A stretch of DNA of 64,000 nt from Chthoniobacteraceae bacterium (GCA_037190965.1 JBBCKI010000048.1:82982-146981), one strand, 5' to 3'; shown: positions 11,292-59,424, counted from the first letter of the stretch. Notes: a model not told the origin generated them from the letters alone. Translations and numbers: made by a program.

Positions 11292-11454
11292 TGGTGCGGC
11301 AGCACCGGTAGCCCGCTCGCGCCGCCGAGCGCGGGTATCGACTCCCGTGTGCTTTATGAGAGCCACATCCCAATGTCAGCAGCCCGTCCTGCGGGGATGG
11401 ACGCGAAACGCGGCTCTTCACCAATCCCGCGCTCGGCGGCGCGAGCGGGCTACC
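11292..11454 (+). repeat. REPIN-like element copy 1 (cap hairpin + inverted GTAG REP doublet)
   Basis: TGGTGCGGCAGCACC-GGTAGCCCGCTCGCGCCGCCGAGCGCGGGTATCG…CCCGCGCTCGGCGGCGCGAGCGGGCTACC; recurs across the window. Confidence 0.9.
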
Positions 11455-11593
11455 CTAGCCGGTCCTCCAATCGGTAACTTTGCGGTCCATGCACCCGGTT
11501 AAACAAAGGCAACCTGTTTTCGATTGAAAACGTAAGGGAATATCCTAGCTTCCACCCAGGTCACACCTTGGCCTACTGAAGCATATCGTCCAA

Positions 11594-12898
11594 ATGGCCT
11601 CTTTCGCGTACCTCTTCGAGCGCTTTCCCGCTCCCACCCAGACCTTTTGTTACCGGGAGGTAGCCGAGATGTGCAGGAAGGGAGTTGAACCGGCCATATT
11701 TTCGATCCGACGCCCCTCCGAGATTCCCTTGGATTGCCCCGAAGAAGTGATCCGCCTGATTCGCCATCTCCCCGAAGAAAGGACTCTCCGGAGTGAAATC
11801 GGGCGGTTGCGCGCCGAACGCCGGATCGGACGCAAGGCGAGCAAGCAGCTTGCCCTTAACCCCAAGAGGGATGTCCTGCGGATCTACGAGGCGCTCTGGC
11901 TCGGCCCGCGTCTTCGGGAAGAGGGCATTCGGCACGTTCACGCCCACTTCGCCGGAATCGCCGCGCGCACCGCTTATTGGCTCAAAAAGCTCTACGGAAT
12001 CAGCTATAGCTTTACCGGCCATGCCAATGATATTTTTTGCGAAACGAGCTTCCCCGTAACGCAGGTCGATCTCATTCGCGAAGCCGCGCTGGTGGTCACG
12101 GAAACCGACTACAGTTGCGACTGGCTCAAGAAGCATTACCCCCAATGGGCCGGCAAATTCCATCGGGTCTATAACGGCATCGATTCGACCCAGCTTTTAC
12201 AGGCGGCCCCCACTCCCGGCAGGCCGCATATCATCTCGGTGGGCCGCTGCATCGAAAAGAAGGGGTTTGCGGACCTGATCGACGCCTGTGCGTTGTTGCG
12301 GGATCGAGGAGTGGAGTTCGAGTGCTCCATCGTCGGCAGCGGGCCGCTGGAAGATTCGCTTCGCGCCCGGGTGACGGAGCGCAGCCTCGACGGAGTGGTC
12401 CGGTTGACCGGCTCGCAGCCGCAGGCGGAAGTACGCTCGCTTCTCTCACGCTCCCACGTCTTCGCACTTGCTTGCAGCACCGAGGCCAATGGAGGCATGG
12501 ATAACTTTCCCACCGTGATTGTCGAAGCGATGGGCAGTAGGCTCCCGATCGTTTCCACCCGCCTGGCGGGAGTACCCGAGATGGTCCAGGAGAACGTCAA
12601 CGGGTTGCTCGTGAATGAACGGGATCCGGCCGCTCTGGCCGTTGCAATCGAGACCCTGCTTGCCGATCCCGAGCGAGCGAGCCGATTCGGAGCTGCCGGG
12701 GTCAACCTCGTCGCCGAGAAATTTGTAGTATCCGTCACTACAGACAGCCTGATCAACCTGCTTGCAAGTCTCCCGCAGGTCCAGATGCCGCCACCCCACC
12801 CGCAGCGCAAGGCATCATGGCTTCAATGGCTGCGGGAACCCATCGCGAGCTTTTTGACCCTGGCCACCGTTGCGGACTCATCCACGATGGGAGCTTAG
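11594..12898 (+). CDS. Glycosyltransferase family 4 (WcaL-like)
   Basis: HVHAHFAG, SFTGHANDIF, VGRCIEKKGF, DNFPTVIVEAM. Confidence 0.9.
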   Translation: MASFAYLFERFPAPTQTFCYREVAEMCRKGVEPAIFSIRRPSEIPLDCPEEVIRLIRHLPEERTLRSEIGRLRAERRIGRKASKQLALNPKRDVLRIYEALWLGPRLREEGIRHVHAHFAGIAARTAYWLKKLYGISYSFTGHANDIFCETSFPVTQVDLIREAALVVTETDYSCDWLKKHYPQWAGKFHRVYNGIDSTQLLQAAPTPGRPHIISVGRCIEKKGFADLIDACALLRDRGVEFECSIVGSGPLEDSLRARVTERSLDGVVRLTGSQPQAEVRSLLSRSHVFALACSTEANGGMDNFPTVIVEAMGSRLPIVSTRLAGVPEMVQENVNGLLVNERDPAALAVAIETLLADPERASRFGAAGVNLVAEKFVVSVTTDSLINLLASLPQVQMPPPHPQRKASWLQWLREPIASFLTLATVADSSTMGA

Positions 12899-12951
12899 AG
12901 CGCTCAAGAAAAGTCCGCACAAGGACGAGTTGTTGAGAAGAAAATATTAGG

Positions 12952-13102
12952 GCCTTCGGCCATAGGCGGCGTCGTGGAACTCCGCCCTCCCTCTACCGCG
13001 CGGCAAGCGCGCGCAGGGTAAAAGCTTCTTGATCAACCAGAGTGAAATACCCTCCAACGGAGGGCGGAGCTCCGCGACGCCGCAACCCTTGCAGCCGAAG
13101 GC
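12952..13102. repeat. Second REP-type inverted repeat (GGAGGGCGGAGCTCC arms) between convergent glycosyltransferases
   Basis: 12966-12990 vs 13059-13083 are 23/25 complementary; outer GCCTTCGGC/GCCGAAGGC perfect 9 bp. Confidence 0.75.
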
Positions 13103-13111
13103 TCACTTTTT

Positions 13112-14332
13112 TCACAGCATCTTTTGGAGGATCGCCTCCAGTTGCGCAGGGTCGATCCGCATGTCGTTGTTAAGGAGAGGATCGTCGTGAGCCGGCACAG
13201 CCTCTCCCACAAGCGCCTGATAGCCTAGGCCCATCTGCAATGCCAGCGAACGAAAGTGAGTGGGGGCGTAATCGGGAGAAAAGAGTTCAAGCAACGTTGC
13301 AGGCCTCTCGCAGAAACAGAGATTGCTCAATCCACCCCCGTGCGGGGCGACAATGAACTCCGCCGAAGCAAAGAGCCTCGCCTGCTCCTGAAACCCGATA
13401 TCGCCCAGTGTCGCCCGCTGAAACCCAAACCGGTCTAGTATCGGCATCAGTTCATGTTCATTGGTGATCCGGCGTACGGCCCTCACCGAGTCTTTGCGAC
13501 TGATAACGAGGCGGATCCGTTGATTGGGCGAGACGGATGAAGGGCGATGAAGCTGCCGTAAAAAGGGAAAAACGAACGGGTGATGCTGCCGGTCATTGTT
13601 GGGGAAAGAAGCGGCGACCAGACTGTCGCATTCGACATGGCGCGTTTTCGTACACCAGACAATCTTCTCCCGGGGAATGCCCAGCAAATCGAGAGTCTCG
13701 TAATGCGGATCGTACTTCGGCTTGGTCATCAGAAAGCCGTCGAAATCCTTGATCCTGAACCCCGCCAGCCGAAGAACCTCGAGGCGGGCAATGTTATCGT
13801 ACATCCAGTGGTAAGTGGAATTTCCCGGACCGTTGAGAAGGGCATAACGGCCCCGCAAACGACGCAGGGGCGGCAATTCCGTCTCGCAAAGCAGCGGGTG
13901 ATCCCAGGGCTCCCGGAAGAATACCCGGGAAACGTCGCTCAAAAGCACGTTGTCATTCGTCAGCACCGCCCCGTACCGCCCGATCATACGGCCAAATGGG
14001 ATCTCGATGGCAAACTGGGCGGGAACCGTGAACGGACCGACCTGCCATTCTCCTTCCTCCAATATCGGGTGAGGGCAAATAAAGGGCTCCAGGGAAAACT
14101 CGCCCCGATAGGGAGGCGCCACCTCAACGAAACTCGAACGATTCCAGCATCCAAAATGCCAAGCCCGGGCCGTCTGACTTTCCACCGGAACCGGAGCTTT
14201 TAGTCCAATTCTTTTCGGCTTGCCGGGAATGGCGGGAATGGCGTTGACACCTTTGTTCACCAGGCGGGCGACGCGCATCCGAAAACGATTCTTAACGCAA
14301 TCCCAATCCTGTTGCCCGCTTACGGTACTCAT
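13112..14332 (-). CDS. Glycosyltransferase family 61 (DUF563-like)
   Basis: YHWMYD, ISRKDS…RRITNEHEL, EQARLFASAEFIVAPHGGGLSNLCF. Confidence 0.85.
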   Translation of the reverse strand: MSTVSGQQDWDCVKNRFRMRVARLVNKGVNAIPAIPGKPKRIGLKAPVPVESQTARAWHFGCWNRSSFVEVAPPYRGEFSLEPFICPHPILEEGEWQVGPFTVPAQFAIEIPFGRMIGRYGAVLTNDNVLLSDVSRVFFREPWDHPLLCETELPPLRRLRGRYALLNGPGNSTYHWMYDNIARLEVLRLAGFRIKDFDGFLMTKPKYDPHYETLDLLGIPREKIVWCTKTRHVECDSLVAASFPNNDRQHHPFVFPFLRQLHRPSSVSPNQRIRLVISRKDSVRAVRRITNEHELMPILDRFGFQRATLGDIGFQEQARLFASAEFIVAPHGGGLSNLCFCERPATLLELFSPDYAPTHFRSLALQMGLGYQALVGEAVPAHDDPLLNNDMRIDPAQLEAILQKML

Positions 14333-14392
14333 TCTTTCCCCGGTGGATAGCTAGGGAAATACCCGCACGCAAGCGATATCTACCATTGGAGG

Positions 14393-14986: not shown

Positions 14987-15153
14987 CGGATCACTCGGCG
15001 CAGTCCCGGGAAAGGACGGATCCTGACAAGTCGCGCTTACAGCCGCGTTCACGACCTTTTTACAACCGGTCTGCCGCCGTTTCCGATACTCTATCCTATT
15101 TTTCGAGGCTCTGCCGCCTTTTTTTTGCCTCCGCGAGGCCCCGAGGAACCGAT

Positions 15154-15230: not shown

Positions 15231-15239
15231 CTCCTGCTA

Positions 15240-19490: not shown

Positions 19491-19650
19491 GGTAGCCCGC
19501 TCTCGCTGAGAGCGCGGGATCGGTAAGGAGTCGCGCTTGGCGCTCAACCCAGCGGGACGGACCGCCGCTGTTGGGATGCGGCATTAAGGAGAAACGAGAG
19601 CCGATACCCGCGCTCGGCGGCGCGAGCGGACTACCGGTACTACCGCACCA
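19491..19650 (-). repeat. REPIN-like element copy 2
   Basis: Reverse-orientation copy with cap TGGTGCGGTAGTACC and both GTAG arms. Confidence 0.9.
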
Positions 19651-23223: not shown

Positions 23224-23395
23224 TGGTGCGGCAGCACCGGTAGCCCGCTCGCGCCGCGAGCGCGGGAGAGGACGCGGTGGCGCGTTCGGCTTTCATCCCA
23301 GCCAGACAAACTGCCGGTCTTGAGATTGGCAAAAATCGGGAGGCATCAAGAGACACGTAAGTCGATACCCGCGCTCGCGGCGCGAGCGGGCTACC
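23224..23395. repeat. REPIN-like element copy 3 (core inverted relative to cap)
   Basis: Cap + GTAG arm on + strand, but the internal core matches other copies on the minus strand. Confidence 0.85.
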
Positions 23396-24357: not shown

Positions 24358-27300
24358 ATGAACCAGGTCATCCTCGATCAGACCTCGCACCTTCGCGGGC
24401 TCTATTCCCCGGGCCAAGAACATGACGCCTGCGGCGTCGGATTCATCGCTTCCATCAAGGGCCAACGCTCCCACAAAATTCTGCGCCACAGTTTGACGGC
24501 GCTCCGCAACCTGGCTCATCGCGGCGCCATCGACGCCGATGCCAAAACCGGCGACGGCGCCGGCGTGATGACCCAGATCCCCCACAAACTCTTCGCCGCC
24601 GAAGTCAAAAAGCTGGGTCACCGACTTTATCACGACGAAGACCTCGGCGTCGGATTCATCTTCCTGCCGCACGACAACGCTTACGCCCAGGCCCGGGCCA
24701 AGGCCATTGTCGAAAAAGTCATCGCCAAGCGCGGTCTCTTCCTCTTCGGCTGGCGCGAAGTGCCGATCCACCTCAGGGTTCTCGGCGAAAAGGCACAACT
24801 CACCATGCCCCGCATCGAGCAAGTGCTCGTGGGCAAGCCCGCCGACATCGACGCCGACGAGTACGAACGCCGCCTCTTCCTGGTCCGCAACGAAGTGGAA
24901 AAACGCGCCGCCGAAGCGGAAATCAAGCATTTCTATATCCCGTCGTTCTCGCACCGGACGATCATCTACAAGGGGCTGCTCACCTCCCCCACGCTGGAGA
25001 CGTTCTATAAGGATCTGACGAACCCGGATTACGAGACCTCCATCGCCGTCTACCACTCCCGCTACAGCACCAACACCTTCCCGACCTGGCCGCTCGGCCA
25101 GCCGTTCCGGATGCTCGCGCACAATGGCGAGATCAATACCCGGCGCGGCAACGTGAACTGGATGCACGCCCGCGAAGCCGAATTGCAGGCGGGCGCATGG
25201 GGCACGGACATTGACCTTCTCAAGCCGATCATCCAGCCCGGCGGCTCGGACTCCGCGGAACTCGACAACTCGCTGGAAGCCCTCGTGATGAGCGGGCGCA
25301 ACATCCTGCACGCGATGACCATGCTGGTGCCGCCCGCCTTCCGCGCGGACAAGAACCTGCCGGAGCCGATCCGCGCGTTCCATGAATATCACCGCGCCTT
25401 TAACGAACCGTGGGACGGCCCCGCCGCCCTCGTTTTCAGCGACGGGCTTACCGTCGGCGCGTGTCTCGACCGCAACGGCCTGCGCCCCTCCCGCTACAAA
25501 CTGACTGACGATGGGATCTTCTCGCTCGGCTCCGAAGTCGGCACCATCGAGTTCGACGACGAGCACGTGCTGGAAAAGGGACGGCTCGCTCCCGGCGAGA
25601 TGATCGCCATCGACACGGTGGAAGGCGTCCTGCTGCGTGACGATGCCATCAAGACCCGCCTCGCCGCCGCGCAGCCGTATGGCGAATGGGTGAAGACCCA
25701 TCTCAAGCCGCTCGAAACGTTCGTGACCGAACCGGTCAAGGAACCGGAGGGCGACCTCGATATTCTCACGCTGACGCAAAAGCAGATCGCCGCCGGGTAC
25801 TCCAGCGAAGAGTTGGAAATGGTGCTCAAGCCGATGGCAAAAAGCGCCTACGAAGGGATCAGCTCCATGGGCGACGACACGCCGCTGGCCGTTCTCTCGC
25901 TCCAGCCGCGTTTGTTGTATAGCTACTTCAAGCAACTCTTCGCGCAGGTGACAAACCCGCCGATCGATCCGATCCGCGAGAAGCTGGTCATGTCGCTCTA
26001 CACCGGCCTCGGCTGGCGGCGCAACCTGCTGGGCGAAACTCCGGAACACGCGAATCTGGTGATCGCCAAATCGCCCATTCTTCTGGAGAACGAATTTGCG
26101 GCCCTCAACACCATCCCCGACCACCCGCTGGCCGTCATCAGCACTGTCTGGCCCTTGGCGGAAGGCGAACAGGGATTGGAAAAAGCGATCGACCAGATTT
26201 GCGAAGAAGCGGAATTCCGCGTTCGCCAGGGCGTTCGGCTGCTGGTCCTGAGCGACCGCGCCGTCGATCACGAGAACGTGGGCGTCCCGATGCTCCTCGC
26301 CACCGGTGCGGTGCATCACCGCCTGATTCGCGCGGGGCTCCGCATGAAGGCGAGCATTATCTGCGACACGGCGGAAGCCCGCGACGTGCACCAGATCGCC
26401 TGCCTCATCGGCTACGGCGCAAGCGCGGTCTGCCCCTACCTCGGCTTCGAAACCTGCCGGGAGCTTCTGGAAAAAGACAAGGCGCTCGCCCCCGCCAAGC
26501 AGCAGTTCGTCGGAATTAGCTACGAGAAGACCGTCGCCAACATGCGCCAGGCCCTGGAGGACGGGCTGCTCAAGATCATGTCGAAGATGGGAATCTCCGT
26601 GCTCGCCAGCTACCAGGGCGCGCAGATCTTCCAGGCCATCGGCGTGGGCGATGCGGTAATCGCCAAGGCGTTCAACGGCACCCCATCGGGCGTCGGCGGC
26701 GTCGGCTTTGCCGAGATCGCCCGCGAAAGCCTGGAACGGCACCACAAGGCCTATGCCGCGCCGGTTCCCACGGACAAGGACGGCACCCCGCTTCTCGAAG
26801 ACGCCGGGTATTTCCGGTTCCGCCGCGACGGGGAGACGCACGCCGTCACTCCGCCGGTCATCAAGAACTTCCATACCTTCGTCAAGAGCGGCAACCCCGC
26901 CGACTACAAGGCCTATGTGGAAGCGCTCAAGGCAAACCGCCCCATCGCGCTCCGCGACCTCTTCGAATTGGTCCCCTCACCCGAAGGGCCGGTGCCCATT
27001 GAGGAAGTCGAGGAGATCGAAGACATCCGTAAACGTTTCACCACGGCAGCCATGTCGCTCGGCGCGCTCAGCCCCGAAGCCCACGAATGCCTGGCCATCG
27101 CCATGAACCGGATCGGCGGCAAGTCGAACTCCGGCGAAGGCGGCGAGGACCCCGAACGCTTCCGCCGCCGCGACAATGGCGACCTCGCCAACAGCGCGAT
27201 CAAGCAGGTGGCCTCCGCCCGCTTCGGCGTGCATGCGGCTTACCTGGCCAGCGCGAAGGAAATCGAGATCAAGATGGCGCAAGGCTCCAAGCCGGGCGAA

Positions 27301-33788: not shown

Positions 33789-33852
33789 GCGGGGATGGAC
33801 GTGACATGCGTCGCGTCGGCTCTCCATCTCCCGCGCCCTCGGCGAGAGCGGG
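33789..33852 (+). repeat. Degenerate 3' half of REPIN-like element
   Basis: GCGGGGATGGACG…CTCCCGCGCCCTCGGCGAGAGCGGG matches core end and right arm. Confidence 0.65.
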
Positions 33853-33946
33853 AGTGGGTTACCAGTAGGCTCCGTGATTTCGACCTTTGTTCCGAGAACT
33901 CGAATCAGGTCGAAGCGCCACTCTGCGAAAGCTCGCTGGGGAGCAC

Positions 33947-40952: not shown

Positions 40953-41060
40953 GTGACTGAAAGCTGCGGGTCTGAGAAAAATCGAGGGGAAGAGTAAAGA
41001 GCATCCCGGCGGTTTCGAAAATGCTAAATTTTAGGACCCGGTGCAACTGATGCACCTCGA

Positions 41061-41096
41061 CGTCGATGCCCGCGCTCTCGGCGAGAGCGGACTACC
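41061..41096 (+). repeat. Single right arm of REPIN-like element
   Basis: CGTCGATGCCCGCGCTCTCGGCGAGAGCGGACTACC. Confidence 0.8.
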
Positions 41097-41125
41097 TTGC
41101 CGGATTGGCAAACGGAGCTTTTCTC

Positions 41126-41291
41126 TATAGCGTTTCTCGGAAATAATTTCCGGAAGGCAATGGGAGCGCCGTGGCTTCTGGAGCAAGGAACAAAGCGCAG
41201 TGGCTGGGGCCGTAGTGCCCCTGCCCAAGCTTAGCGACGCCGCGCCAGAGACCGCGCCGCCCCAGTACATCCGGAAAGGAGAGATGCTCTA
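41126..41291. mobile_element. Putative MITE-like element with TA-terminated imperfect inverted ends
   Basis: Left end TATAGCGTTTCTC…TTTCCGG; right end reverse complement TAGAGCATCTCTCCTTTCCGG; inner imperfect IR 41161-41181/41245-41264; related sequence at 15154-15230. Confidence 0.5.
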
Positions 41292-43766
41292 TTCCCAGAT
41301 GAAATGCTCCAGCCTCAAACGGCTTGCGCTTTTTGCCGCTTCCTCGGCTCGCGGCCCCTCCAGGGCGGCCATCTTCCGGTAGATGCCGATGGCGCTTTTC
41401 CATTGCCCCTGCGCTTCGCAGAGACGTCCGGCATCGAACCCGGCTTTGTAAAACCAGTAGTACTCCTCAGGCTCGGCGAGCCCCGCCTCCAGGACGTCGT
41501 AGTAAGCCGCCAACGCCTCTTCCGGCCGGGCCAATGCTTCCAGCAGACGCCCCTTCTGGTAGAGCGCCTGGCTGCGCCAGGTTACCCCAAGGCCGGGCTC
41601 GGCGGCCAGATGCGTGTACAGCTCGAGCGCCTGCTGGGAAAGCGCCCGATCTTTCTCTCCCAACTCAGCGAGGTTTTCGGCCTTCCCGGCGAGCGCGGCA
41701 AAACGCACCTCGGCGGGTGGGTCCGCCCGCAAAATCGCGTCGTAGAGAAGAATCGCCTCATCCTGCTTTCCCATCCGGTTTTTGGCCAGCGCCTGCTGGA
41801 GCCGAACCTGGAGCTTGAGCGGGCCATCCATCTTGGCGGCCTCCGCAAACAATTCGATGGCGCGATCGATGGCTCCTTCGCTCATCCGCTTCATCGAAGC
41901 CTGCCCGGCCAGAAACAGCGCCGCCTCCACGAGCGGCGAGGCGGAATTCTCTTTCGCAAGCGTTTCGAACTGAGTCTGCGCGCCCGCGAAATCGCCCGTG
42001 CGAAAATAAACCTGCCCAAGCTTCATCCGGACCTCGGGCCGCTTTGCGGCAAGGGGGTACTGCTCCAGAAATGCCTGACAGAGCGCGGCCACTTTCTCGT
42101 CGTCGCGAGGCGTGGCGGCGTCGGCGACAAAAATGGCCAGATACGCGGATTGCTGCAACGCTTGGGGGGAAGGGCTCACTTCATCGCTCGATCCCGTCTC
42201 ATTGACGACCTTCAAAACTTCGGATGCACCCGCCGCGTCGTTCCCGGCAAGCCGAAGTTCGGCAAGGGCGATCCTCGCCTCGGCGACACGCGGGTTGTCC
42301 CGGAAATCATGAATGAACTGCCGCAGCGTCGCCTCGGCTTGCGCGACATGGGCAGGCCCCTGCCGGGCCTGAAGCAGCCCCTCCTCCAGAATCAACTCGC
42401 GACGATACGGGCTGTCGGGCACCCGAGTGCTCAGTTCCTTGTAGTCCTGCAAAAAACGGGAAAAATTCCCCTGGTGCAACCATGAGAGCGCGGAGTTGAA
42501 CACCGCCCGCTCCCAAAGCGCGGGCGCGCGTTCCCCTGCCGCGCGAAAAACCGTGGCGGCGAGGACGAATTCGCCCTCCTGAAAAGAGACGGTGGCCGAA
42601 GCCATCTCGATCTCCGCGCGTTCGAGATCGGTTTGCGACGCGCGCATCGCGCCATCCAGCGCAACCTGCGCCTCGCGAAATTTCTTCTCCTCGGTCAATA
42701 ACCGCCCTTGCATCAGCAACGCGGGAGCAAGCATCGGGTGCCGGGGGAACCGTTCGCCGTAGTTTTCCAGCGCACGAAGCGCGCGCTCCCGTTTCCCCGC
42801 CCGCGTATAGGCTTTGGAGAGATAATAGGCGGCGAAGCCGGCGCGTTGTTTGTGAAGGTTCGGTTCGCGCTCGGCCCATTTTTGCAGTTCGGAATCCGAC
42901 GCGCTCTCCTCCCCCGCGTAGATTTCATCCAACTTGGCGAAGATCTCGCCGAGCCGGGGGCTCTCCGGGTATCGCCAGATAAACTGCTCCAGCACATTGT
43001 CCGCCGCGGCAAGCCCGCTCAGCTGTGCCCGCGAATCGCTCATGCCCAGCAATGCGCCCGTGATCAAATCCATTGTGAGACCCGACGAAGCGGGATCGCG
43101 CTGCAAGCTCTCAAACCTCCCCAACGCATACGCCGGATGCCCTTCCGCCAAAAGCAGACGCGCTTCCACATACTGCTTCCATTTTTCTGCCGCCGGAGTG
43201 CCGGGCCGGATCCCGGGAAGAAGCGCGGCGCATTTCTTAAGCTCGCCGCCCTCCAGATAGAGCTCCGCCAGCCGCAGGCTCGCGGTTTCCGTCGGATGCG
43301 TCAGGCTTTCCAGCGCGGTAATCGCCTCCGGCAGCCGGTTGAGAGCGCGCAGCGACTCCGCCTTTCCCAAAGCGGCCAGGGCCGAATCCTGCCCCTGCGG
43401 GTGCGCGTCATAGAACGCGCCATAAACCGTCAATGCTTCCTCCCAGCGCTTCAGCGCGGCATTGGCCCGCCCTTCAAGCAATGGCGCGGAGACCCCCGGT
43501 TCCTTCAATTCCTTGAGCGCCTCTTCGAAACGGCCTGCCGCAAGGAGCGCTTCGGCAAGTTTCGTGCGAACCTGCACCTGCACTCCTTCCTCCAAAGGCG
43601 CGTTCAACTGTTCGCGCAGCTTGACCACGGCCACCTCGGGCACTCCGCTCTCCAGCGGCTCCAAGGCCCGATCCAACCCCGGATCGGGCGCGGCAACCGC
43701 AGCGGATACCGCCAGGAAAAAAGCGGCCACGGGAAAACGATGTTTCAGGAAAGCGTCGGCATTCAT
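41289..43766 (-). CDS. Exported tetratricopeptide repeat protein
   Basis: Signal peptide, many TPR-like helical repeats; ATGA overlap with uvrA stop. Confidence 0.88.
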   Translation of the reverse strand: MNADAFLKHRFPVAAFFLAVSAAVAAPDPGLDRALEPLESGVPEVAVVKLREQLNAPLEEGVQVQVRTKLAEALLAAGRFEEALKELKEPGVSAPLLEGRANAALKRWEEALTVYGAFYDAHPQGQDSALAALGKAESLRALNRLPEAITALESLTHPTETASLRLAELYLEGGELKKCAALLPGIRPGTPAAEKWKQYVEARLLLAEGHPAYALGRFESLQRDPASSGLTMDLITGALLGMSDSRAQLSGLAAADNVLEQFIWRYPESPRLGEIFAKLDEIYAGEESASDSELQKWAEREPNLHKQRAGFAAYYLSKAYTRAGKRERALRALENYGERFPRHPMLAPALLMQGRLLTEEKKFREAQVALDGAMRASQTDLERAEIEMASATVSFQEGEFVLAATVFRAAGERAPALWERAVFNSALSWLHQGNFSRFLQDYKELSTRVPDSPYRRELILEEGLLQARQGPAHVAQAEATLRQFIHDFRDNPRVAEARIALAELRLAGNDAAGASEVLKVVNETGSSDEVSPSPQALQQSAYLAIFVADAATPRDDEKVAALCQAFLEQYPLAAKRPEVRMKLGQVYFRTGDFAGAQTQFETLAKENSASPLVEAALFLAGQASMKRMSEGAIDRAIELFAEAAKMDGPLKLQVRLQQALAKNRMGKQDEAILLYDAILRADPPAEVRFAALAGKAENLAELGEKDRALSQQALELYTHLAAEPGLGVTWRSQALYQKGRLLEALARPEEALAAYYDVLEAGLAEPEEYYWFYKAGFDAGRLCEAQGQWKSAIGIYRKMAALEGPRAEEAAKSASRLRLEHFIWE

Positions 43767-46663
43767 GGGAGCATCCTCTTCAAATACCGCCCCGTATGGC
43801 TGGCCTCAAGCGCGGCGATCTCCTCGGGCGTCCCCTCTCCGACGATGGTGCCGCCCCCTTCTCCCCCTTCGGGCCCCATGTCGATGATCCAGTCGGCGCA
43901 TTTGATCATCTCAAGATTATGCTCGATGACGACGAGCGTGTTGCCGCTGTCGCGCAGCTTGAGTAGTACTTCCAGCAGCTTGTGAATGTCCGCAAAATGC
44001 AAGCCTGTTGTCGGCTCGTCGAGGATGTAAACCGTCCGCCCGGTGGCTTTCTTGGCCAGTTCCGCCGCGAGCTTCACGCGTTGCGCCTCGCCGCCGGAAA
44101 GCGTCGTCCCGGCCTGCCCGAGCCGGACATACCCGAGCCCCACGTCTTCCAGCGCCACGAGCCGATCCGAGATCGTCGGGACACTGCGGAAAAACCGCGC
44201 GGCCTCGTCCACGGTCATGTCGAGAATGTCGGCGATGTTCTTCCCCTTGTAGGTAATCTCCAGCGTCTCTCGATTATAGCGCCGCCCCCGGCAAACTTCA
44301 CACTCCACGTAGACATCCGCCAGGAAGTGCATCTCGATCTTGATGACCCCGTCGCCCTCGCAATTCTCGCAGCGGCCCCCTTTGACGTTGAAGGAGAAAC
44401 GCCCCTGGTCGTAACCGCGCACGCGGGAGGCGGGAAGCTGCGCAAAGAGAGAACGGATCGGCCCGAACGCGCCGGTGTAAGTCACCGGGTTGGAACGCGG
44501 CGTGCGGCCGATCGGCGACTGATCAATGACAATCGCCTTGTCCACCTGATCGAGTCCCAGCAGGGCACGGTGTTTCCCGGGGCGATCCTTGGAGTGATAA
44601 AAATGACGGAAAAGCGCCCGGCGAAGAATGTCGTCCACGAGCGTCGATTTACCGCTGCCGGAAACACCGGTAACGGCGGTAAAACACCCGAGCGGAAATG
44701 AAGCCGTGATATTCTTGAGATTGTTCTCCTGCGCGCCTGCGACCGTCAGCCATCCGCTGGAGAGCACCCGACCGTCCATCGCGAACTCCCGCCTTCCTTC
44801 CGGAGCGACGCGGCGGCGCGGCACGGGAATGCCGAGACGGCCCGAGAGATAATCAGCAGTGAGCGACCCCTGCGTGGCGAGGACCTCTTCCAGGGTCCCC
44901 TGCGCGACGAGATGCCCGCCGCGTACCCCGGCTCCCGGCCCGAGGTCGAGCACGTGATCGGCGGCACGGATCGTGTCTTCATCGTGTTCGACGACGATCA
45001 CGGAATTTCCCAGATCGCGCAGCCGCCGGAGCGTGCCGATCAACCGGTCGTTGTCCCGCTGATGTAGGCCGATGCTGGGCTCATCGAGAACATAGAGCAC
45101 CCCGGCAAGCCCGGAGCCGATCTGCGTGGCCAGCCGGATCCGCTGCGCCTCGCCGCCGGAAAGCGTCCCGCTCTCACGATCGAGGTTCAGGTAGCTCAAG
45201 CCGACTTCGTCCAGGAAATTGAGCCGCGCCCCGATCTCGCGAAGCACTTCGGAGGTGATAAACCGCTGCTGTTCAGTCAGCGGCAGGTTTTCCAGAAAGC
45301 GTTTGGCATCACAGATGGTGAGGCCGCAGATCTGATGAATATTGAGCCCTTTTCCTTCGCTCCCAATGGTCACCGCGAGAATCTCCGGCTTGAGCCGCGC
45401 ACCCTGGCACGCCGAACAAGGACGGCGGCTCATGAAGGCGCGAATGCGGTTGCGGGTCAGTTCGCTGTCGCTCTCCTCATAGAGCCGGTGCAACTGAAGC
45501 ACCACCCCTTCGAACGGTTTGGTGACCTTGGTACGCTTGGTGGCGTTGCCCCAGCTGATGTCGATGGAACGCTCGCCGGTTCCGTAAAAAAGGGCGTCTT
45601 TGAATTTGTCGGAAAGTTCGGCAAAGGGAACATCCAGCGGTGCTTTGTATGCGCGCGCCAGCGAGTGGAGCAGCCCCTCGTAATAATTGATCATCCGCTT
45701 GTTGGCGCGAGCCCATGGGACGACAGCGCCCCCCGCCAGCGTCTTCTCGGGATCGGGACAAATCAGGTCGGGATCGCACACCGCCTCCGTCCCCAGCCCG
45801 TGACACGCCGGGCAGGCGCCGAGATGGCTGTTGAAAGAAAAATGTTTCGGCGTGAGCTGCGGAATGGCGAAGCCGGTCTCCGGGTTCGTGAAGTCGGTGG
45901 AATAACGATGCTCGCTCCAGGTCTCCTCACCGCGCGCCTGCGTGAGCGCCATGAGACGCCCGCCGCCCCACTTCAACGCGGTCTCGACAGAATCGGCGAA
46001 GCGTTGCCGCGCTCCGTCGCGCACCACCACGCGATCGACCACGGCCTCGATGGAGTGCGCATGGGTCTTGTCAAGCTTGACCGGCTGCTGCGGATTGCCG
46101 AGTTCCACGATCTCCCCGTCGATGCGCGCGCGGATGAACCCTTCGCGCTTCACCTTTTCGAGCACATCGCGGAACTCCCCGTTCTGCGCGTGCACCAGCG
46201 GGGCGAGAAGCACCACCTTCGTCTCCTGAGGAAAGGCGAGCAGCGCGTCCACGATGCTCTGGGAGGTCTGTTTATAAACCGGCGCGCCGGTGGCGGGATC
46301 GTGCGGTTGGCCGATGGCGGAGAACAGAACGCGCAGGTAATCGTAAATCTCCGTCGTCGTGGCGATCGTCGAGCGCGGGTTGCTGCCCGAGGTCCGCTGC
46401 TCAATGGCAATCGCGGGAGAAAGCCCCTCGATGAAATCGACATCAGGCTTCTGCATCTGGTCGAGAAACTGCCGGGCGTAAGCCGAAAGACTCTCCACAT
46501 AGCGGCGCTGCCCCTCCGCGTAAAGCGTGTCGAAGGCAAGCGACGACTTGCCCGAGCCGCTCAAGCCGGTGACGACCACCAGCCTCTGGCGAGGGATTTG
46601 CAGCGAAAGATTCTTGAGATTATGCTGCCGAGCGCCTGTGATTTTGATTGTTTCCGCCGCCAT
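43763..46663 (-). CDS. uvrA: Excinuclease ABC subunit A
   Basis: [32 protein letters not shown], two LSGGEAQR signatures, Zn fingers. Confidence 0.98.
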
Positions 46664-46729
46664 TTTGCAGGATTCGTGGAATCTGAAACGAAAGCACATT
46701 CGCCCCAAGACCTCCAGAGATAATTCCTT

Positions 46730-46981: not shown

Positions 46982-47046
46982 GATGTGCTTTTCCGCTTGG
47001 CGGCGTCTCACACGCGGTCATGACGGGAACGTTGCGAAACGAAGAA

Positions 47047-47207
47047 TGGTGCGGCAGCACCGGTAGCACGCTCGCGCCGCCGAGCGCGGGTATCGGGTTC
47101 CATGGCTTCATGAGGGCCTCATCCCAGCACCGGCAGCCTGTCTTGCGGGGATGGATGTCAAACGCGACTCTTCGCCGATCCCGCGCTCTCGGCGAGAGCG
47201 GTCTACC
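47047..47207 (+). repeat. REPIN-like element copy 4
   Basis: Cap + both arms + CATCCC/GGGATG core; between convergent genes. Confidence 0.9.
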
Positions 47208-51655: not shown

Positions 51656-51980
51656 TGGGGAGGTGGGGGAGAGTTGGGGGGATGGCGCCAGCGAATATCC
51701 GTCGCCGAAAATTGCCGAAATTGAGGAAAGAACCCACATGATAAATTCTATTTCTTCATTTTTCCAGCAAGAACTCAGCGCGCCCCGGGAGGCGCGATCC
51801 AGCGCAACCTTCTCTGTGGGGCAGGGTTTCTCCTAGAAGATTTGAACATCTCCGCCCGGGCGATGTCTCAATACCAGAACCTTAAAAAAACGAAACCAGT
51901 GATCCCATTTGAACCATCCGCGAGCAAGGCAAAGCTCCGGACCGAATCTCATATTGGAACACTTTTCAAAGGCTACTCTT

Positions 51981-52871
51981 ATGGCAGCTGAAGATACAGA
52001 TTCCGGGATCAAAATTTATCTGCGCGAGATCGGTCAGATCTCGCTCCTCACCCCTCAGGATGAGATTGACCTGGCAGCCCGAATCAAGAAGGGCGACAAG
52101 GAAGCGCGAAGCATCATGATCAGGGCCAACCTGAGGCTGGTGGTCAAGATTGCTCATGACTACGCGAACCTCGGGCTCCCGTTGCTCGACCTGATCTCGG
52201 AAGGCAACATCGGCCTGATGAAGGCCGTTGAACGCTTCGACCCAGCAAAAGGAGGGAAACTGAGCACGTACGCCGCCTGGTGGATCAAGCAGTCGATCAA
52301 GCGCGCGCTGGCCAACCAGAGCAAGACGATCCGCCTCCCGGTTCACTTGGTGGACAAAATTTCCAAGATGCGCCGGGTATCGCTCCAGATGAGCGAGGAA
52401 CTGGGCCGCGAACCGACCGATGACGAGCTTGCCGAAGAGGTGGGCCTCTCCAGCGCCAAGGTGTCGCACCTGAAAACCGTCGCCATTCGCCCGGCCTCGC
52501 TGGATGCCCCAATCAGCGACGACGATAACACCGCCTTCGGCGAAATTGTCGGCGACGAAGAGGCGCTGACTCCTTTCGAACTGCTCCGCGACAAGAATCT
52601 CCGCGATGAAGTGGGCGATCTGCTCGCCGTGCTCGATGAGCGGGAAAAGAAAATTATCTTCTCCCGTTTCGGGCTCGATGGAGGCAAGCCGCGTACGCTC
52701 GAGGAGGTCGGCAAAAAATTCGGCGTCACCCGTGAACGCATCCGGCAGTTGCAGAACATCGCGCTCTCGAAACTCCGCCGCGCGCTCCAGAAAAAGGAGC
52801 GCCCCGCCATCCAAAGCCTCACCGAGACGCAGGCGAAGGAGGCAGGGTTGGAGGAGTTGGAGATCGAGTAG
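51981..52871 (+). CDS. RpoD/SigA-family sigma-70 factor (short, no region 1.1)
   Basis: IYLREIG, ANLRLVVKIA, DLISEGNIGLMKAVERFD, STYAAWWIKQSI, TLEEVG…VTRERIRQ. Confidence 0.95.
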   Translation: MAAEDTDSGIKIYLREIGQISLLTPQDEIDLAARIKKGDKEARSIMIRANLRLVVKIAHDYANLGLPLLDLISEGNIGLMKAVERFDPAKGGKLSTYAAWWIKQSIKRALANQSKTIRLPVHLVDKISKMRRVSLQMSEELGREPTDDELAEEVGLSSAKVSHLKTVAIRPASLDAPISDDDNTAFGEIVGDEEALTPFELLRDKNLRDEVGDLLAVLDEREKKIIFSRFGLDGGKPRTLEEVGKKFGVTRERIRQLQNIALSKLRRALQKKERPAIQSLTETQAKEAGLEELEIE

Positions 52872-52879: not shown

Positions 52880-53072
52880 GGTGCGGCAGCACCGGTAGTC
52901 CGCTCGCGCCGTCGAGCGCGGGTATCGGCTCCCGAGGCTCCAAAGCTCCAAGGCTCCCTCGAACCTGCATCCCAGCAATCGAATTGGCCGCGTCCGGCTG
53001 GGATGGGAGTCAAGCCGTCACGACGTCAATACCCGCGCTCTCGGCGAGAGCGGGCTACCTTCGTCCGTCCTG
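52880..53072 (+). repeat. REPIN-like element copy 5 (+ TTCGTCCGTCCTG tail shared with tandem array)
   Basis: Both arms, core closest to array units; internal GGCTCC micro-duplication. Confidence 0.9.
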
Positions 53073-55405: not shown

Positions 55406-56075
55406 CGCCAGGGTCGGAGTCAAATGGTGCGGCAGCACCGGTAGTCCGCTCGCGCCGTCGAGCGTGGGTATCGGCCTCCGAGGCTCCCTCGAACCTACAT
55501 CCCAGCAACCATCCGCGTCCGGTTGGGATGAGGGTCAAGCGCGGTGCGGCGTCGATACCCGCGCTCTCGGCGAGAGCGGGCTACCTTCGTCCGTCCTGCT
55601 CTCGGATCCCTGATCGGCATTCGCATAGCGTCTCGGCGCTGCGCCAGGGTCGGGGTCAAATGGTGCGGCAGCACCGGTAGCCCGCTCGCGCCGTCGAGCG
55701 CGGGTATCGGCCTCCGAGGCTCCCTCGAACCTACATCCCAGCAACCATCCGCGTCCGGTTGGGATGAGGGTCCAGCGCGGTGCGGCGTCGATACCCGCGC
55801 TCTCGGCGAGAGCGGGCTACCTTCGTCCGTCCTGCTCTCGGATCGCTGATCGCCATTCGCATAGCGTCTCGGCGCTGCGCCAGGGGCGGGGCCAAATGGT
55901 GCGGTAGCACCGGTAGTCCGCTCGCGCCGTCGAGCGCGGGTATCGGCCCTCGGGGCTCCCTCGAACCTACATCCCAGCAGCCATCCGCGGTCGGTTGGGA
56001 TGAGGGTCAAGCGCGGTGCGGCGTCGATACCCGCGCTCTCGGCGAGAGCGGACTACCTTCGTCCGTCCTGCTCTC
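55406..56075 (+). repeat. Tandem array of ~2.8 units of 236 bp, each containing one REPIN-like element (copies 6-8)
   Basis: Cap starts at 55425, 55661 and 55897 (exact 236 spacing); units nearly identical; degenerate linker remnant at ~55358-55390. Confidence 0.95.
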
Positions 56076-56968: not shown

Positions 56969-57180
56969 AACTGGATTCTGTCCTGCTGCAACAGGTGGAG
57001 ATCCATTGCAGCGGCGCGAATATTCACACGGCGTTAAATCTCATGGCGGGCTACATCACGGCGGTACGAGAGTTAAAAAATGGCGATGAAGATTTCCGGC
57101 CCATCGCGACGGAAGCAGAAAAGCAATTGCGGGCCCTTCTGGTGAAACTTCGGCTGGAACGATGGCCTGATTTTGGTTGA
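56965..57180 (+). CDS. Small helical hypothetical protein (71 aa)
   Basis: GTGA overlap with the SLOG stop, GGAGGG RBS upstream. Confidence 0.6.
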   Translation: MKLDSVLLQQVEIHCSGANIHTALNLMAGYITAVRELKNGDEDFRPIATEAEKQLRALLVKLRLERWPDFG

Positions 57181-57210
57181 AATCAGCGCCGTAATACATA
57201 GTTTTACGAC

Positions 57211-57441
57211 ATGGTCAAAACGATTACCAAAATCGGGAACTCTCAAGGGATTATTTTTGACTCGGCACTGCTCGACCTGACTCATCTCCGGGTCGGAGAT
57301 CAGGTGGATGTGACGATAACCCCCGAGAGCGGTGCGATTACGCTGATGCCTATCCGGAAAGGGCCTACTCGGGAAGAGATTCAGGCTACCATCGCAAAAA
57401 CAGTCAAAGATTATCGGACAACCCTGAAGAAACTCTCGTGA
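57211..57441 (+). CDS. AbrB/MazE/SpoVT-family antitoxin
   Basis: KTITKIGNSQGIIFD…LRVGDQV; GTGA overlap with toxin. Confidence 0.9.
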   Translation: MVKTITKIGNSQGIIFDSALLDLTHLRVGDQVDVTITPESGAITLMPIRKGPTREEIQATIAKTVKDYRTTLKKLS

Positions 57442-57836
57442 GCGCAACGCCCGACGATTGTTTCCATCTTTCCGTCCCCACCGTTCGCGAAATTCATGAA
57501 GCGGTGCTGGCCGAGTGCGGCGGGCTGGCAGGTGTGGGAGATGAAGGATTGCTGACATCCGCTGTCTTTGCACCACAGGCCAGCTTCGCAGGTAAATCGC
57601 CCTATTGCGATCTCGTCGAAATCGCGGCGGCTTATCTGTTTTATCTTTGCCGAAACCATCCGTTTCTTGATGGGAACAAGCGGACGGCCGTGACATCGGC
57701 CATCGTGTTTCTTCGTTTGAACGGAATTGAACCGATGCCGGACAGCGACGACTGGGAAGCCCTCGTCATCGATGTCGCCGCGAGCCGCCTCGACCGCGAT
57801 GCCACCACGGCGCGGCTTCGGGCTTTGATCCCCTGA
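57438..57836 (+). CDS. doc: Death-on-curing (Doc/Fic) type II toxin
   Basis: HPFLDGNKRTA Doc-type motif; 132 aa. Confidence 0.9.
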   Translation: MSATPDDCFHLSVPTVREIHEAVLAECGGLAGVGDEGLLTSAVFAPQASFAGKSPYCDLVEIAAAYLFYLCRNHPFLDGNKRTAVTSAIVFLRLNGIEPMPDSDDWEALVIDVAASRLDRDATTARLRALIP

Positions 57837-57861
57837 CTTTTTACCTGATTTCCAACCACAC

Positions 57862-59247
57862 ATGACCCTCAAAGAAGAATTGGTGCAACTCCTCGGGCCG
57901 GAAGTGGTCCACGACGACGCGGAAACCCTCGCGCTCCACAGCAAAGACAAATGGTTTGCCAGCCGGGAGCCGGAGGTGGTCGTGCTCGCGGAGAATACCG
58001 ACCAGGTCAGCCGCCTGCTCCGCTTCGCCTCGGAGCGCCGCATCCCTGTGACCCCGCGCGGCGCGGGCGTCGGCTACGTCGGCGGCGCGGTGCCGCTGCA
58101 TGGAGGGATCGCGCTTTCGGTGGCACGGATGAACCGGATCAAGGAGATCAATCCCGCAGACGGCGTGGCCATCGTGGAGCCGGGCGTCATCACCGGCGAT
58201 TTGCAGGCCGCCGTGCGGGAATTGGGGCTTTTCTATCCGCCGGACCCGGCCAGCCTCAAAGAGTGCTCGCTGGGCGGCAACATCGCCACCAACGCCGGGG
58301 GGCCGCGCTGCCTCAAGTACGGGGTGACACGCTCCTACGTTCTCGGGCTGGAAGTCGTGCTGGCCAGCGGCGAAGTCCTTCGCACCGGGGGACGCACGCA
58401 CAAGAACAAGACCGGGTTCGATCTCGTGGGGCTTTTCACCGGCTCGGAAGGATTACTGGGCGTCGTGACGGAGGCGACCCTGCGGCTCATCCCGCTCCCG
58501 CCCGCCCGCGCCTCCATTTCCGCCAGTTTTACTACGTTCCGCGAAGCGGCGGACGCCGTGCACAAAGTGCTCGGCTCGGGCTATCTCCCGGCCGCGCTGG
58601 AAATTGCGGACGCCTTTACGCTGCAATCGGCCCGCGAGTATTTCGGCGCGGCGATTGTCCCCGAAGGCGAGGGCCATCTGCTCATTGACCTCGACGGACA
58701 GGAAGCCTCCGTGCGCGGCGAAGCTCTGGCGTTGGCGGATCTGGTTCGCGGCCTCGGCGCGCTCTATGTTGCCGAAGCCTTCGGCGAGGAAGAATGCGAA
58801 TCGCTGTGGGCCTTGCGCCGGCGGTTCTCCCAGTCGCTCAAGGCGACGGGGCTCACCAAACTCAACGAAGACATCGTCGTCCCGCGCGGCAAGCTCGTGG
58901 ATCTTGCCGAATTCGCGGCGAGCCTGCGGGCGAAATACGGCTTTCCCGTCGCCTGCTTCGGTCACGCGGGAGACGGCAACATCCACACCAACATCATGGC
59001 GGCGGATTACGACAAACCCGAGGTGCGGGAAAAGGTCGATCGCGCGCTCGACGAACTCTTCGCGCAAGTGCTGGCCTGGGGTGGGGCAATCACCGGCGAG
59101 CATGGGATCGGCATTGCCAAGGGCCGCTGGTGGCCCGATGCAGCCTCCTCCGTCAGCCGCGAAGTCCACGCCGCCATCAAGACGGCGCTTGATCCATTAG
59201 GCATTCTGAATCCCGGAAAATTCACGGCATCGCAGGGCTCCCGATAG
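57862..59247 (+). CDS. FAD-linked 2-hydroxyacid oxidase (GlcD/D-lactate dehydrogenase family)
   Basis: TPRGAG, YPPDPAS, GGNIATNAGG, GSEGLLGV, GHAGDGNIH, ITGEHGIG, LNPGK. Confidence 0.9.
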   Translation: MTLKEELVQLLGPEVVHDDAETLALHSKDKWFASREPEVVVLAENTDQVSRLLRFASERRIPVTPRGAGVGYVGGAVPLHGGIALSVARMNRIKEINPADGVAIVEPGVITGDLQAAVRELGLFYPPDPASLKECSLGGNIATNAGGPRCLKYGVTRSYVLGLEVVLASGEVLRTGGRTHKNKTGFDLVGLFTGSEGLLGVVTEATLRLIPLPPARASISASFTTFREAADAVHKVLGSGYLPAALEIADAFTLQSAREYFGAAIVPEGEGHLLIDLDGQEASVRGEALALADLVRGLGALYVAEAFGEEECESLWALRRRFSQSLKATGLTKLNEDIVVPRGKLVDLAEFAASLRAKYGFPVACFGHAGDGNIHTNIMAADYDKPEVREKVDRALDELFAQVLAWGGAITGEHGIGIAKGRWWPDAASSVSREVHAAIKTALDPLGILNPGKFTASQGSR

Positions 59248-59260
59248 GAAGATCCGCGAA

Positions 59261-59424
59261 GGTCGTCCGCTCGCGCCGTCGAGCGCGGGAGATGACCGGG
59301 AGACGCATTGGACGCCCATCCCCGCAGAACGGATGTTCCAATCGTCGGAATTCAGGTTTAGGGGCAAACACGAGCCGATACCCGCGCTCGGCGGCGCGAG
59401 CGGACTACCGGTGCTGCCGCACCA
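59261..59424 (-). repeat. REPIN-like element copy 9
   Basis: Reverse-orientation copy with cap; distal arm begins GGTCGTCC instead of GGTAGTCC. Confidence 0.88.

What the first reader, a model, noticed from the sequence alone, without database searches (positions are those of the whole stretch)
11292..59424. Dense family of capped GTAG REP-doublet (REPIN-like) elements with a structurally conserved core
Seen: 9 full copies (11292, 19491, 23224, 47047, 52880, 55425, 55661, 55897, 59261) and 2 halves (33789, 41061) in 64 kb, all intergenic and nearly all just 3' of a gene. The architecture is (i) a cap hairpin GGTGC-GGCA-GCACC at one end only, (ii) inverted arms GGTAGYCCGCTC…GAGCGCGGG(T)ATC whose hairpins covary (CTCTC/GAGAG, CTCGC/GCGAG, CTCG/CGAG), and (iii) a ~85-100 nt core that is strongly diverged yet usually keeps a CATCCC…GGGATG stem and similar total length (160-180 bp). 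Established: GTAG + imperfect palindrome is the hallmark of REPs mobilised by RAYT (TnpA-REP) HUH nucleases, and inverted doublets are REPINs. Inference: the asymmetric cap and conserved inner stem go beyond a plain REP doublet, suggesting selection on a folded ssDNA/RNA structure (mobilisation substrate or 3'-UTR RNA element) in a lineage where this may be undescribed. No RAYT gene is in this window.
Basis: partly seen in the sequence, partly recalled or inferred. Interest (0 to 1): 0.8.

Follow-up and report, generated by a model that had tools for sequence, protein, structure and literature searches.

The report
Jumping DNA repeats wearing mini-hairpin caps
This soil bacterium carries about 200 copies of a small hairpin-shaped repeat of a known mobile type (REPIN) plus the single enzyme gene that likely copies it, and almost every copy wears a tiny DNA hairpin cap that recurs on an unrelated repeat in another genus and likely matters while the element is single-stranded.

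Summary
In detail: 9 full and 2 partial copies lie in the window, and the genome holds 199 inverted GTAG-REP doublets (median 146 nt), 183 of them capped on one side only. A RAYT gene on another contig is flanked by the same arms, so this is a REPIN-RAYT system, a known kind.

Three things go beyond that. (1) The cap fits the DNA mini-hairpin class (G..A loop closed by C-G). It stays about 97% conserved, apart from one free loop base, even where the core has drifted to 66%. Same-class caps with varied stems sit flush against a different REP in another genus (33 of 99 ends; control 1 of 594). At the two clear filled/empty sites they travel inside the insert. (2) 21 of 195 copies keep ISL3 terminal repeats, so part of the family spread as cargo of an ISL3-ended MITE. 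(3) The RNA reading is weak: the inner stem has 0 compensatory changes (0.9 expected), orientation to genes is mixed (48:27), and there is no Rfam hit.

The cap's function is untested. Verdict: new variant of a known kind.

The parts
11293..11306 (+). cap mini-hairpin (5-bp stem, 4-nt G..A loop)
11307..11454 (+). REPIN doublet, type A core, followed by about 40 nt of the MITE-derived right flank
19491..19649 (-). REPIN doublet (19491-19635), type B core, with cap at 19636-19649 and MITE-like flank beyond it
23225..23395 (+). cap plus doublet (23239-23395) whose core is inverted relative to the cap (one of 10 such among 195)
33789..33863 (-). eroded half element: part of the inner stem and one degenerate arm
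41001..41101 (-). eroded element: intact uncapped-type arm (ending 41096) with core remnant
47014..47047 (+). remnant of the MITE interior left of the cap
   Evidence: (inner repeat at C48:129995)
47048..47207 (+). cap plus doublet (47062-47207), type A, close to the family consensus
52880..53059 (+). cap plus doublet (52894-53059), type B, between a sigma-70 factor gene and convergent pyruvate kinase
55406..56075 (+). tandem array, 236-nt unit, three capped type-B doublets (55440-55585, 55676-55821, 55912-56057)
59261..59423 (-). doublet (59261-59409), type B, cap at 59410-59423, 14 nt after the stop of a GlcD-like oxidase gene

Best explanation
The elements are REPINs (two inverted GTAG-REP arms 146 nt apart) that are likely copied as single-stranded DNA by the one RAYT (TnpA-REP) nuclease whose gene, on contig C50, is flanked by the same arms, and the cap is a carried part of the element that is predicted to fold as a stable DNA mini-hairpin flush against the 5-prime foot of an arm and likely helps that strand be recognised or survive during copying. 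Shown: the doublets, the flanked intact RAYT gene, the conservation of the cap, same-class caps with other stems in a sister lineage and in another genus, and caps lying inside the insert at two filled/empty sites in that genus. Also shown: at least 21 copies keep ISL3 terminal repeats whose homology stops at the repeat edge. Inferred: one capped REPIN was enclosed by ISL3 ends, the roughly 330-nt composite was spread by an ISL3 transposase that is now not found in the genome, this fed the younger type-A layer, and the unselected flanks then eroded. Not shown: RAYT cleavage of these arms, folding of the cap in the cell, and what the cap does.
For: RAYT at G000:C50:56866-57234 scores 82 bits on NF047646 (cut-off 80). 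It is an open 148-aa frame that aligns to E. coli TnpA-REP 4ER8 (E 1.5e-9) with HUH, WQ and Y---NP in place. A family doublet lies about 60 nt upstream and an arm supplies its stop codon. The five same-genus genomes searched show neither this RAYT nor the element. Most RAYT relatives are bordered by their own inverted GTAG or GTGG doublets (read by eye from 15 loci). Cap: in 37 capped type-B copies 13 of 14 positions are 95-100% conserved and one loop base 70%, with core 66%; in 34 copies that keep a collinear flank, flank 70%, core 81%, cap 96%. 12 of 198 caps carry compensatory stem pairs, 1.3 expected. Sister-lineage contigs (genes 76-89% identical): 4 of 13 usable arm ends have class caps, with 3 stems all different from G000's. 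G077+G078: 33 of 99 distinct arm ends have a flush C-G-closed G..A hairpin, 13 stems, 26 triloops and 7 tetraloops, control 1 of 594; without preselecting the class it makes up 20 of 28 and 15 of 21 hairpins against 0 of 23 and 1 of 9 in controls. Empty orthologous sites lack the caps at L191 (4 relatives) and L193 (1 close relative). Only GNA among 64 triloops forms DNA mini-hairpins, and the RNA form of the best octamer melts at 39 C against 76.5 C (PMC13037366 section 2.3). ISL3: the repeat ends a 1322-nt element with an ISL3 transposase; 21 of 195 copies carry it, 0 of 1200 control stretches; identity is 0.68 inside and 0.25 outside the repeat, n=24; 20 of 140 type-A and 0 of 42 type-B copies carry it.
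Against: The doublet beside the RAYT gene and 16 of 195 doublets have no cap, and no such caps were seen in G158 (0 of 54, same arm as G077), G094/96 (0 of 19), G016 (0 of 11), G089 (0 of 16) or the C9-RAYT family of G000 (0 of 78): the cap is not needed by REPINs in general. The second loop base is 98% conserved although the mini-hairpin rule leaves it free. The 12 compensatory caps fall into only 4 types and may share ancestors. No strand is favoured by G-T over A-C mismatches (cap 19:18), and the replication-strand bias is weak (89:64, p 0.05). The RAYT for the G077/G078 family was not found in those incomplete genomes. There are almost no recent dispersed duplicates (best non-tandem pair about 93% in the core), so present activity is unproven. 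Two of three copies with both ISL3 ends lack a target duplication. Three of five filled/empty tests were ambiguous or not alignable.
Confidence: 0.6

Rival explanations
1. The cap is a by-product. Single-stranded ends next to an arm fold back on short G..A mini-hairpins and are extended or repaired by template switching, which makes and mends perfect stems without any benefit; in G000 one such cap was fixed in the master copy.
For: Stems in G077/G078 are varied, perfect and flush (33 of 35 at distance 0), and the two ends are capped independently: 18/18/6 doublets with 0/1/2 caps, 17.4/19.3/5.4 expected. At L197 part of one cap matches gene sequence in relatives. Several REPIN families have no caps.
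Against: Fold-back repair keeps stems paired but does not explain why three loop bases stay 97-98% conserved while the adjoining flank is 70% and the core 66-82%. At L191 and L193 the caps are not built from the local flank.
Confidence: 0.15
2. The family spread mainly as cargo of an ISL3-ended MITE; the RAYT made only the founders. Flanks were later deleted and the host kept cap and arms for its own use, such as insulating or ending transcription.
For: 21 of 195 copies keep a terminal repeat and 65 of 195 keep MITE-like flank above the 99% null; retention falls with core divergence (rho -0.23); type A is star-like and younger; one full copy has a 7/8 target duplication, and 4 of 17 left-repeat copies have their 8-mer on the right (6% expected); copies are enriched between convergent genes (69 of 187 against 17% of gaps, p 2e-12).
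Against: 130 of 195 copies show no flank trace at that threshold; type B (42 copies, 37 capped) has no terminal repeat and only 5 flank traces; caps also occur in G077/G078, where the two clean inserts are 185-199 nt and show no ISL3 end; no ISL3 transposase was found in G000 (97% complete).
Confidence: 0.12
3. The element is kept as a structured RNA in 3-prime UTRs (mRNA stabiliser or terminator) and the cap is an RNA tetraloop.
For: 153 of 187 copies lie downstream of at least one gene; in co-directional gaps 48 face sense and 27 antisense (p 0.02); the inner stem region is about twice as conserved as the rest of the core.
Against: Both orientations are common; no covariation in the inner helices; only 14 of 144 perfect caps have a GNRA-type loop, and 26 of 33 caps in G077/G078 are triloops; no Rfam match in the window at gathering scores or for one copy at E<=1.
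Confidence: 0.08
4. The cap is the insertion target: RAYT inserts the doublet at the 3-prime foot of a pre-existing genomic mini-hairpin.
For: Flush junctions and varied stems in G077/G078; a few arm-less caps in G000 are followed by tail-like sequence; REPs inside flanking palindromes are reported (PMC3733652).
Against: Caps are absent from the empty sites at L191 and L193; the G000 cap is nearly invariant, and arm-less caps are no more common than in the reversed genome (16 against 27; with tail 1 of 340 against 0 of 380); six doublets are capped at both ends.
Confidence: 0.05

Closest known systems
REPINs and RAYTs of Pseudomonas fluorescens SBW25 (PMC3116915, passages; PMC3337134, parts 1-2 of 3)
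   Same: Inverted REP doublet with conserved spacing, diverged spacer, whole-element hairpin, eroded singlets, tandem clusters with flanks, single-copy RAYT beside its own REPIN type, several RAYT/REPIN types in one genome.
   Different: SBW25 REPINs are described as symmetric with A/T runs outside; here a conserved extra hairpin sits outside one arm, and part of the family keeps ISL3 ends. Compensatory spacer changes, common there, are not seen here.
E. coli BIME/REPtron and TnpA-REP (PMC3333891, passages; PMC8266576, parts 1, 4, 5 of 7; PDB 4ER8)
   Same: GTAG foot before an imperfect hairpin; HUH nuclease with the same motifs; a conserved C then T at the uncapped junction (99%, 76%) resembles the reported C|T cut site; capture of flanking sequence is proposed there.
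   Different: No 5-prime mini-hairpin is described in the parts read; the cut sites here are untested.
GTAG repeat families with associated palindromes (PMC3733652, parts 1-2 of 8 and passages): A. variabilis GTAG-15, T. roseum GTAG-23, O. terrae families
   Same: GTAG dimers in Verrucomicrobia are known; dimers with structured spacers and dimers regularly embedded in palindromic flanks are described.
   Different: Those palindromes enclose the dimer and were read as targets; here the hairpin is complete on one side and carried. The consensus figures and supplements were not visible, so kinship to the O. terrae families is unchecked.
DNA mini-hairpins with GNA/GNNA loops (PMC13037366, section 2.3 and passages)
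   Same: Two G-C pairs closing a G..A loop; reported at phage single-strand origins, the ssiA priming signal and N4 promoters; nuclease-resistant, poorly bound by SSB.
   Different: Not linked to REPs or RAYTs in the passages read; the commonest G000 loop variant is not among the sequences measured in that table.
ISL3-family insertion sequences and their MITEs (Pfam PF01610 on L161; family traits such as the 8-nt duplication recalled, and seen)
   Same: Same terminal repeat, sharp homology edge, internally deleted short forms.
   Different: The cargo is a capped REPIN, most copies have lost the ends, and no ISL3 transposase was found in G000. IS-assisted movement of RAYT genes is reported in Neisseria (bioRxiv 10.1101/2021.07.10.451892, passages).

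Membership tests
REPIN (GTAG-REP doublet) | GTAG tetranucleotide at the 5-prime foot of an imperfect palindrome | tested here: met
   arm columns 94-95% conserved, GTAG 96-100%
REPIN (GTAG-REP doublet) | Two REPs in inverted orientation at a conserved distance, forming a hairpin | tested here: met
   199 pairs; 156 of 195 span 143-149 nt; z -4.6/-4.4 for one copy
REPIN (GTAG-REP doublet) | High copy number, extragenic, dispersed | tested here: met
   of 195 doublets 187 intergenic, 7 at contig edges, 1 overlapping a called gene
REPIN (GTAG-REP doublet) | Single-copy RAYT gene flanked by the same REPs | tested here: met
   G000:C50; the RAYTs on C5 and C9 have other repeats
RAYT / TnpA-REP (class 2 TnpA-Y1) | HUH motif, Y---NP catalytic motif, WQ..R guide-binding residues | tested here: met
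   motif definitions from PMC6006769 passages; Pfam gave no hit at E<=0.001, NCBIfam passed its cut-off by 2 bits
RAYT / TnpA-REP (class 2 TnpA-Y1) | Membership of RAYT group 2 or 3 (subclass 2.2 or 2.5), the groups reported to carry REPINs | not tested
   no reference set of classified sequences was in hand
RAYT / TnpA-REP (class 2 TnpA-Y1) | REP-dependent single-strand cleavage and strand transfer | not testable with these tools
   needs purified protein
ISL3-derived MITE (composite subset) | ISL3 terminal inverted repeats at the element ends | tested here: met
   in 21 of 195 copies, both ends in 3; repeat assigned through L161; not met for the other 174
ISL3-derived MITE (composite subset) | 8-nt target site duplication | tested here: inconclusive
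   1 of 3 two-ended copies (7/8); 4 of 17 left-ended copies against a 6% control rate
ISL3-derived MITE (composite subset) | Autonomous ISL3 partner in the genome | tested here: not met
   PF01610 not found in G000; full elements occur in other genomes of the family
DNA mini-hairpin (GNA/GNNA loop) | Two G-C pairs closing a loop that starts with G and ends with A | tested here: met
   176 of 198 ungapped caps; 33 of 99 ends in G077/G078
DNA mini-hairpin (GNA/GNNA loop) | High melting temperature and nuclease resistance | not testable with these tools
   bench measurement
Structured cis-acting RNA (Rfam-type) | Rfam match, fixed strand relative to transcription, covarying helices | tested here: not met

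The most novel reading that the evidence does not exclude
Some REPIN lineages in Verrucomicrobia have independently added a DNA mini-hairpin at the 5-prime foot of the REP, and it marks and protects the true end of the single-stranded transposition intermediate or serves as a priming signal for its second strand. The cap would then give the first sequence handle on the unknown REPIN copying step. The same family would also show a REPIN population boosted by hitch-hiking inside an ISL3 MITE.
Probability: 0.3. Interest if true: 0.75.

Novelty: new variant of a known kind. Interest (0 to 1): 0.5.

Why it matters
How REPINs are copied and where their ends lie is still unresolved (PMC8266576 introduction). 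A short end structure that is conserved within one family and recurs with different stems on another family is a simple, mutable feature for testing models of the single-stranded intermediate with a 148-aa enzyme and short oligonucleotides. The ISL3 flanks are a warning for REPIN population models: a large part of one population may come from a cut-and-paste burst and not from slow RAYT duplication. If the cap proves a repair by-product, the finding drops to an ordinary new REPIN family.

Tried and rejected
Rfam: no match. Y1_Tnp (PF01797) found four places and missed the cognate RAYT; NF047646 found it. The long C7 and C43 proteins have no family arms beside them. The element was not found by BLAST in 40 relatives; an arm pattern gave one hit in one of 400 class genomes and none in viral contigs. 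A cap-plus-arm pattern over 150 family genomes gave chance-level counts outside G000, but two of its hits led to G077/G078. How many further genomes of the family carry variant caps was not surveyed and is open. A mutual-information scan was dominated by subfamily signal. Strand asymmetry of wobble pairs: none. Replication-strand bias: weak, p 0.02-0.15 over six tests. Sequencing runs: no RNA holder listed; DNA contigs of two runs from one study showed no clean excision joint. Filled/empty tests between G000 and the sister contigs: one site shared (C42:5637), the others too diverged or holding other repeats to place ends. Filled/empty tests in the G077 genus: L197 and L315 ambiguous, L311 not alignable; two single-genome searches found no orthologous flank. 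The core tree gave no usable grouping of TIR-bearing copies (20 changes for 20 copies, no shuffled control). My idea that the cap was only MITE interior was dropped, because type-B, sister-lineage and G077/G078 copies are capped without MITE flanks. The target-hairpin idea was dropped. Earlier notes of this scan held nothing on this sequence. Rows dropped before counts: 4 of 199 doublets at contig ends; 13 more (cap on the core's right, or short flank) from the 182-row alignment; 6 orthologous duplicates of 105 G077/G078 ends; 1 malformed row of 14 in the sister set.


Full report
What is there. In the whole genome G000 (4.21 Mb, 73 contigs, 97% complete) an arm profile finds 451 arms at E<0.01 and none in the reversed sequence. 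They form 199 inverted pairs, with about 68 lone arms that are eroded or cut by contig ends. The median span is 146 nt and 156 of 195 lie within 143-149. Oriented by the core, the cap is on the left in 167, on the right in 10, on both sides in 2 and missing in 16 of 195, so the core has sometimes flipped between the arms. The organism is probably a soil verrucomicrobium of the Chthoniobacterales. That is inferred from the names of RAYT relatives and the run metadata; the genome itself is unnamed.

The enzyme. Pfam Y1_Tnp missed it, but NF047646 found a RAYT at C50:56866-57234 just over its cut-off. The 148-aa frame is open and matches E. coli TnpA-REP, PDB 4ER8, with the HUH, WQ..R and Y---NP motifs (motif definitions in PMC6006769, passages). 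An uncapped doublet of this family lies about 60 nt upstream and a single arm supplies the stop codon. RAYTs on C5 and C9 are bordered by other repeats. Close relatives of the C50 protein occur in 14 of 150 family genomes and in 0 of 5 of the same genus; the element was not found in those five either. This is the REPIN-RAYT arrangement described for Pseudomonas (PMC3116915, passages; PMC3337134, parts 1-2 of 3). That the enzyme acts on these arms is inferred.

The core. All cores descend from one consensus. A split on the first principal component gives 140 type-A copies (16% from their consensus) and 42 type-B copies (26.5%); type B includes the RAYT-adjacent copy and a site shared with a sister lineage. 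The split may partly be a gradient of age. The inner stem and the hairpin beside it are about twice as conserved as the rest of the core but have 0 compensatory pairs against 0.9 expected, and the other core helices are at chance level. Structured spacers of conserved length are already described (PMC3733652, parts 1-2 of 8 and passages).

RNA or DNA. Copies are enriched between convergent genes (69 of 187 against 17% of gaps), as is usual for REPs. In co-directional gaps 48 face sense and 27 antisense (p 0.02), the replication-strand bias is 89:64 (p 0.05), and wobble pairs favour neither strand. Rfam has no match. None of this points to a strand-specific RNA.

The cap. In capped copies 13 of 14 positions are 92-100% conserved and the third loop base 70-77%, in type B as much as in type A, while the cores are 66% and 82%. 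Where the adjoining flank survives it is 70% identical against 96% for the cap (34 copies). Twelve of 198 caps have compensatory pairs, 1.3 expected, but of only four types. Metagenome contigs of a sister lineage carry the same arm, and 4 of 13 usable arm ends have caps of the same loop class with three other stems. In two genomes of another genus, with a different arm, 33 of 99 distinct ends abut a perfect C-G-closed G..A hairpin at distance 0, with 13 stems and 10 loops; shifted controls give 1 of 594. The class dominates without preselection. The two ends are capped independently there (18/18/6). Four other relatives' families and G000's C9 family have no such caps. Two G-C pairs closing a GNA or GNNA loop define the unusually stable DNA mini-hairpin, which is much weaker as RNA, resists nucleases and binds SSB poorly (PMC13037366, section 2.3 and passages). 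Only 14 of 144 perfect G000 caps fit the RNA GNRA rule. The cap lies on the same strand as, and just 5-prime of, the GTAG arm, which is the strand TnpA-REP binds in other systems (PMC8266576, parts 1, 4, 5 of 7). It is not the target: at L191 four empty orthologues and at L193 one lack both caps, which lie inside inserts of 185 and 199 nt; the first insert is bounded by a direct repeat of about 9 nt. Three other tests were unclear. G077 and G078 are kin, so this is two capped lineages, not many.

The ISL3 layer. Flanks beyond the cap and the uncapped arm share sequence among copies. The outermost piece is the terminal repeat of a 1322-nt element encoding an ISL3 transposase in other genomes of the family, and of MITEs, several with 8-nt duplications. 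In G000, 21 of 195 doublets keep such a repeat (control 0 of 1200) and 65 keep MITE-like flank above the 99% null. Homology stops at the repeat edge (0.68 inside, 0.25 outside), as expected if those copies were moved by the ISL3 enzyme. Full composites survive at C58:23203-23532, C56:31336-31657 and C32:29431-29695; only the last has a target duplication. All 20 repeat-bearing copies in the typed set are type A. No ISL3 transposase was found in G000. How many of the 140 type-A copies came by this route is open.

How it most likely works. A RAYT-dependent REPIN with a mini-hairpin cap was present before G000 split from its sister lineage. One copy was enclosed by ISL3 ends and multiplied, and unselected flanks decayed while cap, arms and span were kept. 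The cap likely acts in the single-stranded state, by aiding recognition or protecting the 5-prime end (0.6 for this whole account). The rivals are a repair by-product (0.15), ISL3 as the main driver (0.12), an RNA element (0.08) and a target hairpin (0.05). The conserved C then T at the uncapped junction resembles the C|T site of E. coli TnpA-REP (PMC3333891, passages) but is untested.

Novelty. REPINs, RAYTs, GTAG repeats in Verrucomicrobia, structured spacers and palindromic flanks are known. I found no report of mini-hairpin caps on REPs or of REPINs carried by ISL3 MITEs in six searches of the open-access library (listings only, apart from the papers named). Subscription papers, figures and supplements, including the consensus figure of PMC3733652, were not seen and could hold related families. 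IS-assisted movement of RAYT genes is reported in Neisseria (bioRxiv 10.1101/2021.07.10.451892, passages). Verdict: new variant of a known kind, interest 0.5.

Noticed in passing
G000:C5:33145-33780 (L004/L015) and G000:C9:15737-16178 (L018): Two further RAYT genes, each bordered by its own repeat family; their 16-mers occur about 50-60 times in the genome. The C9 frame lacks the usual C-terminal end by a few residues.
   Followed up: partly
G000:C7:29877-31440 (L003) and G000:C43:15220-16209 (L002): Long TnpA-Y1 proteins of the type with terminal repeats, one preceded by a truncated copy, sitting among low-GC RHS-like genes.
   Followed up: no
L116, L122, L125, L165, L167, L168, L176 (genomes G010, G012, G067, G073): ISL3-ended MITEs of 125-830 nt with unrelated interiors, some holding other repeat doublets or what may be genes; G067 has 63 repeat matches. 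ISL3 ends seem to capture repeats repeatedly in this family.
   Followed up: partly
L197 (G077:C113:3417-3541) and orthologues L296-L302: A REPIN inserted inside a conserved gene at a spot where three relatives carry other, different insertions: a tolerant loop used several times.
   Followed up: partly
G000:C41, C45 and C31 against L058, L059, L055: At three gaps where the sister lineage has this family, G000 has a different repeat family instead, suggesting a few permissive gaps are reused.
   Followed up: no
G000:C70:47367, C71:41106, C10:44488: Composite copies appear to be inserted into another long-hairpin MITE family of about 45-50 copies.
   Followed up: partly
G000:C30:101042, C29:93472, C50:51044, C63:50768: Caps followed directly by tail-like flank with no doublet, possibly precise losses of the 146-nt hairpin; too few to exceed chance.
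   Followed up: partly
G000:C26:1372, C28:152398, C68:89694: Three dispersed copies share the same junction, with the ISL3 repeat fused directly to the cap: a shortened MITE subfamily or a recurrent microhomology deletion.
   Followed up: no
window 9231-10757 (-), 51909-52871 (+), 24358-28947 (+), 41289-46708 (-): RpoN, a short RpoD-like sigma factor, an unexamined 1529-aa ORF and two long ORFs, one with TPR-like repeats.
   Followed up: no
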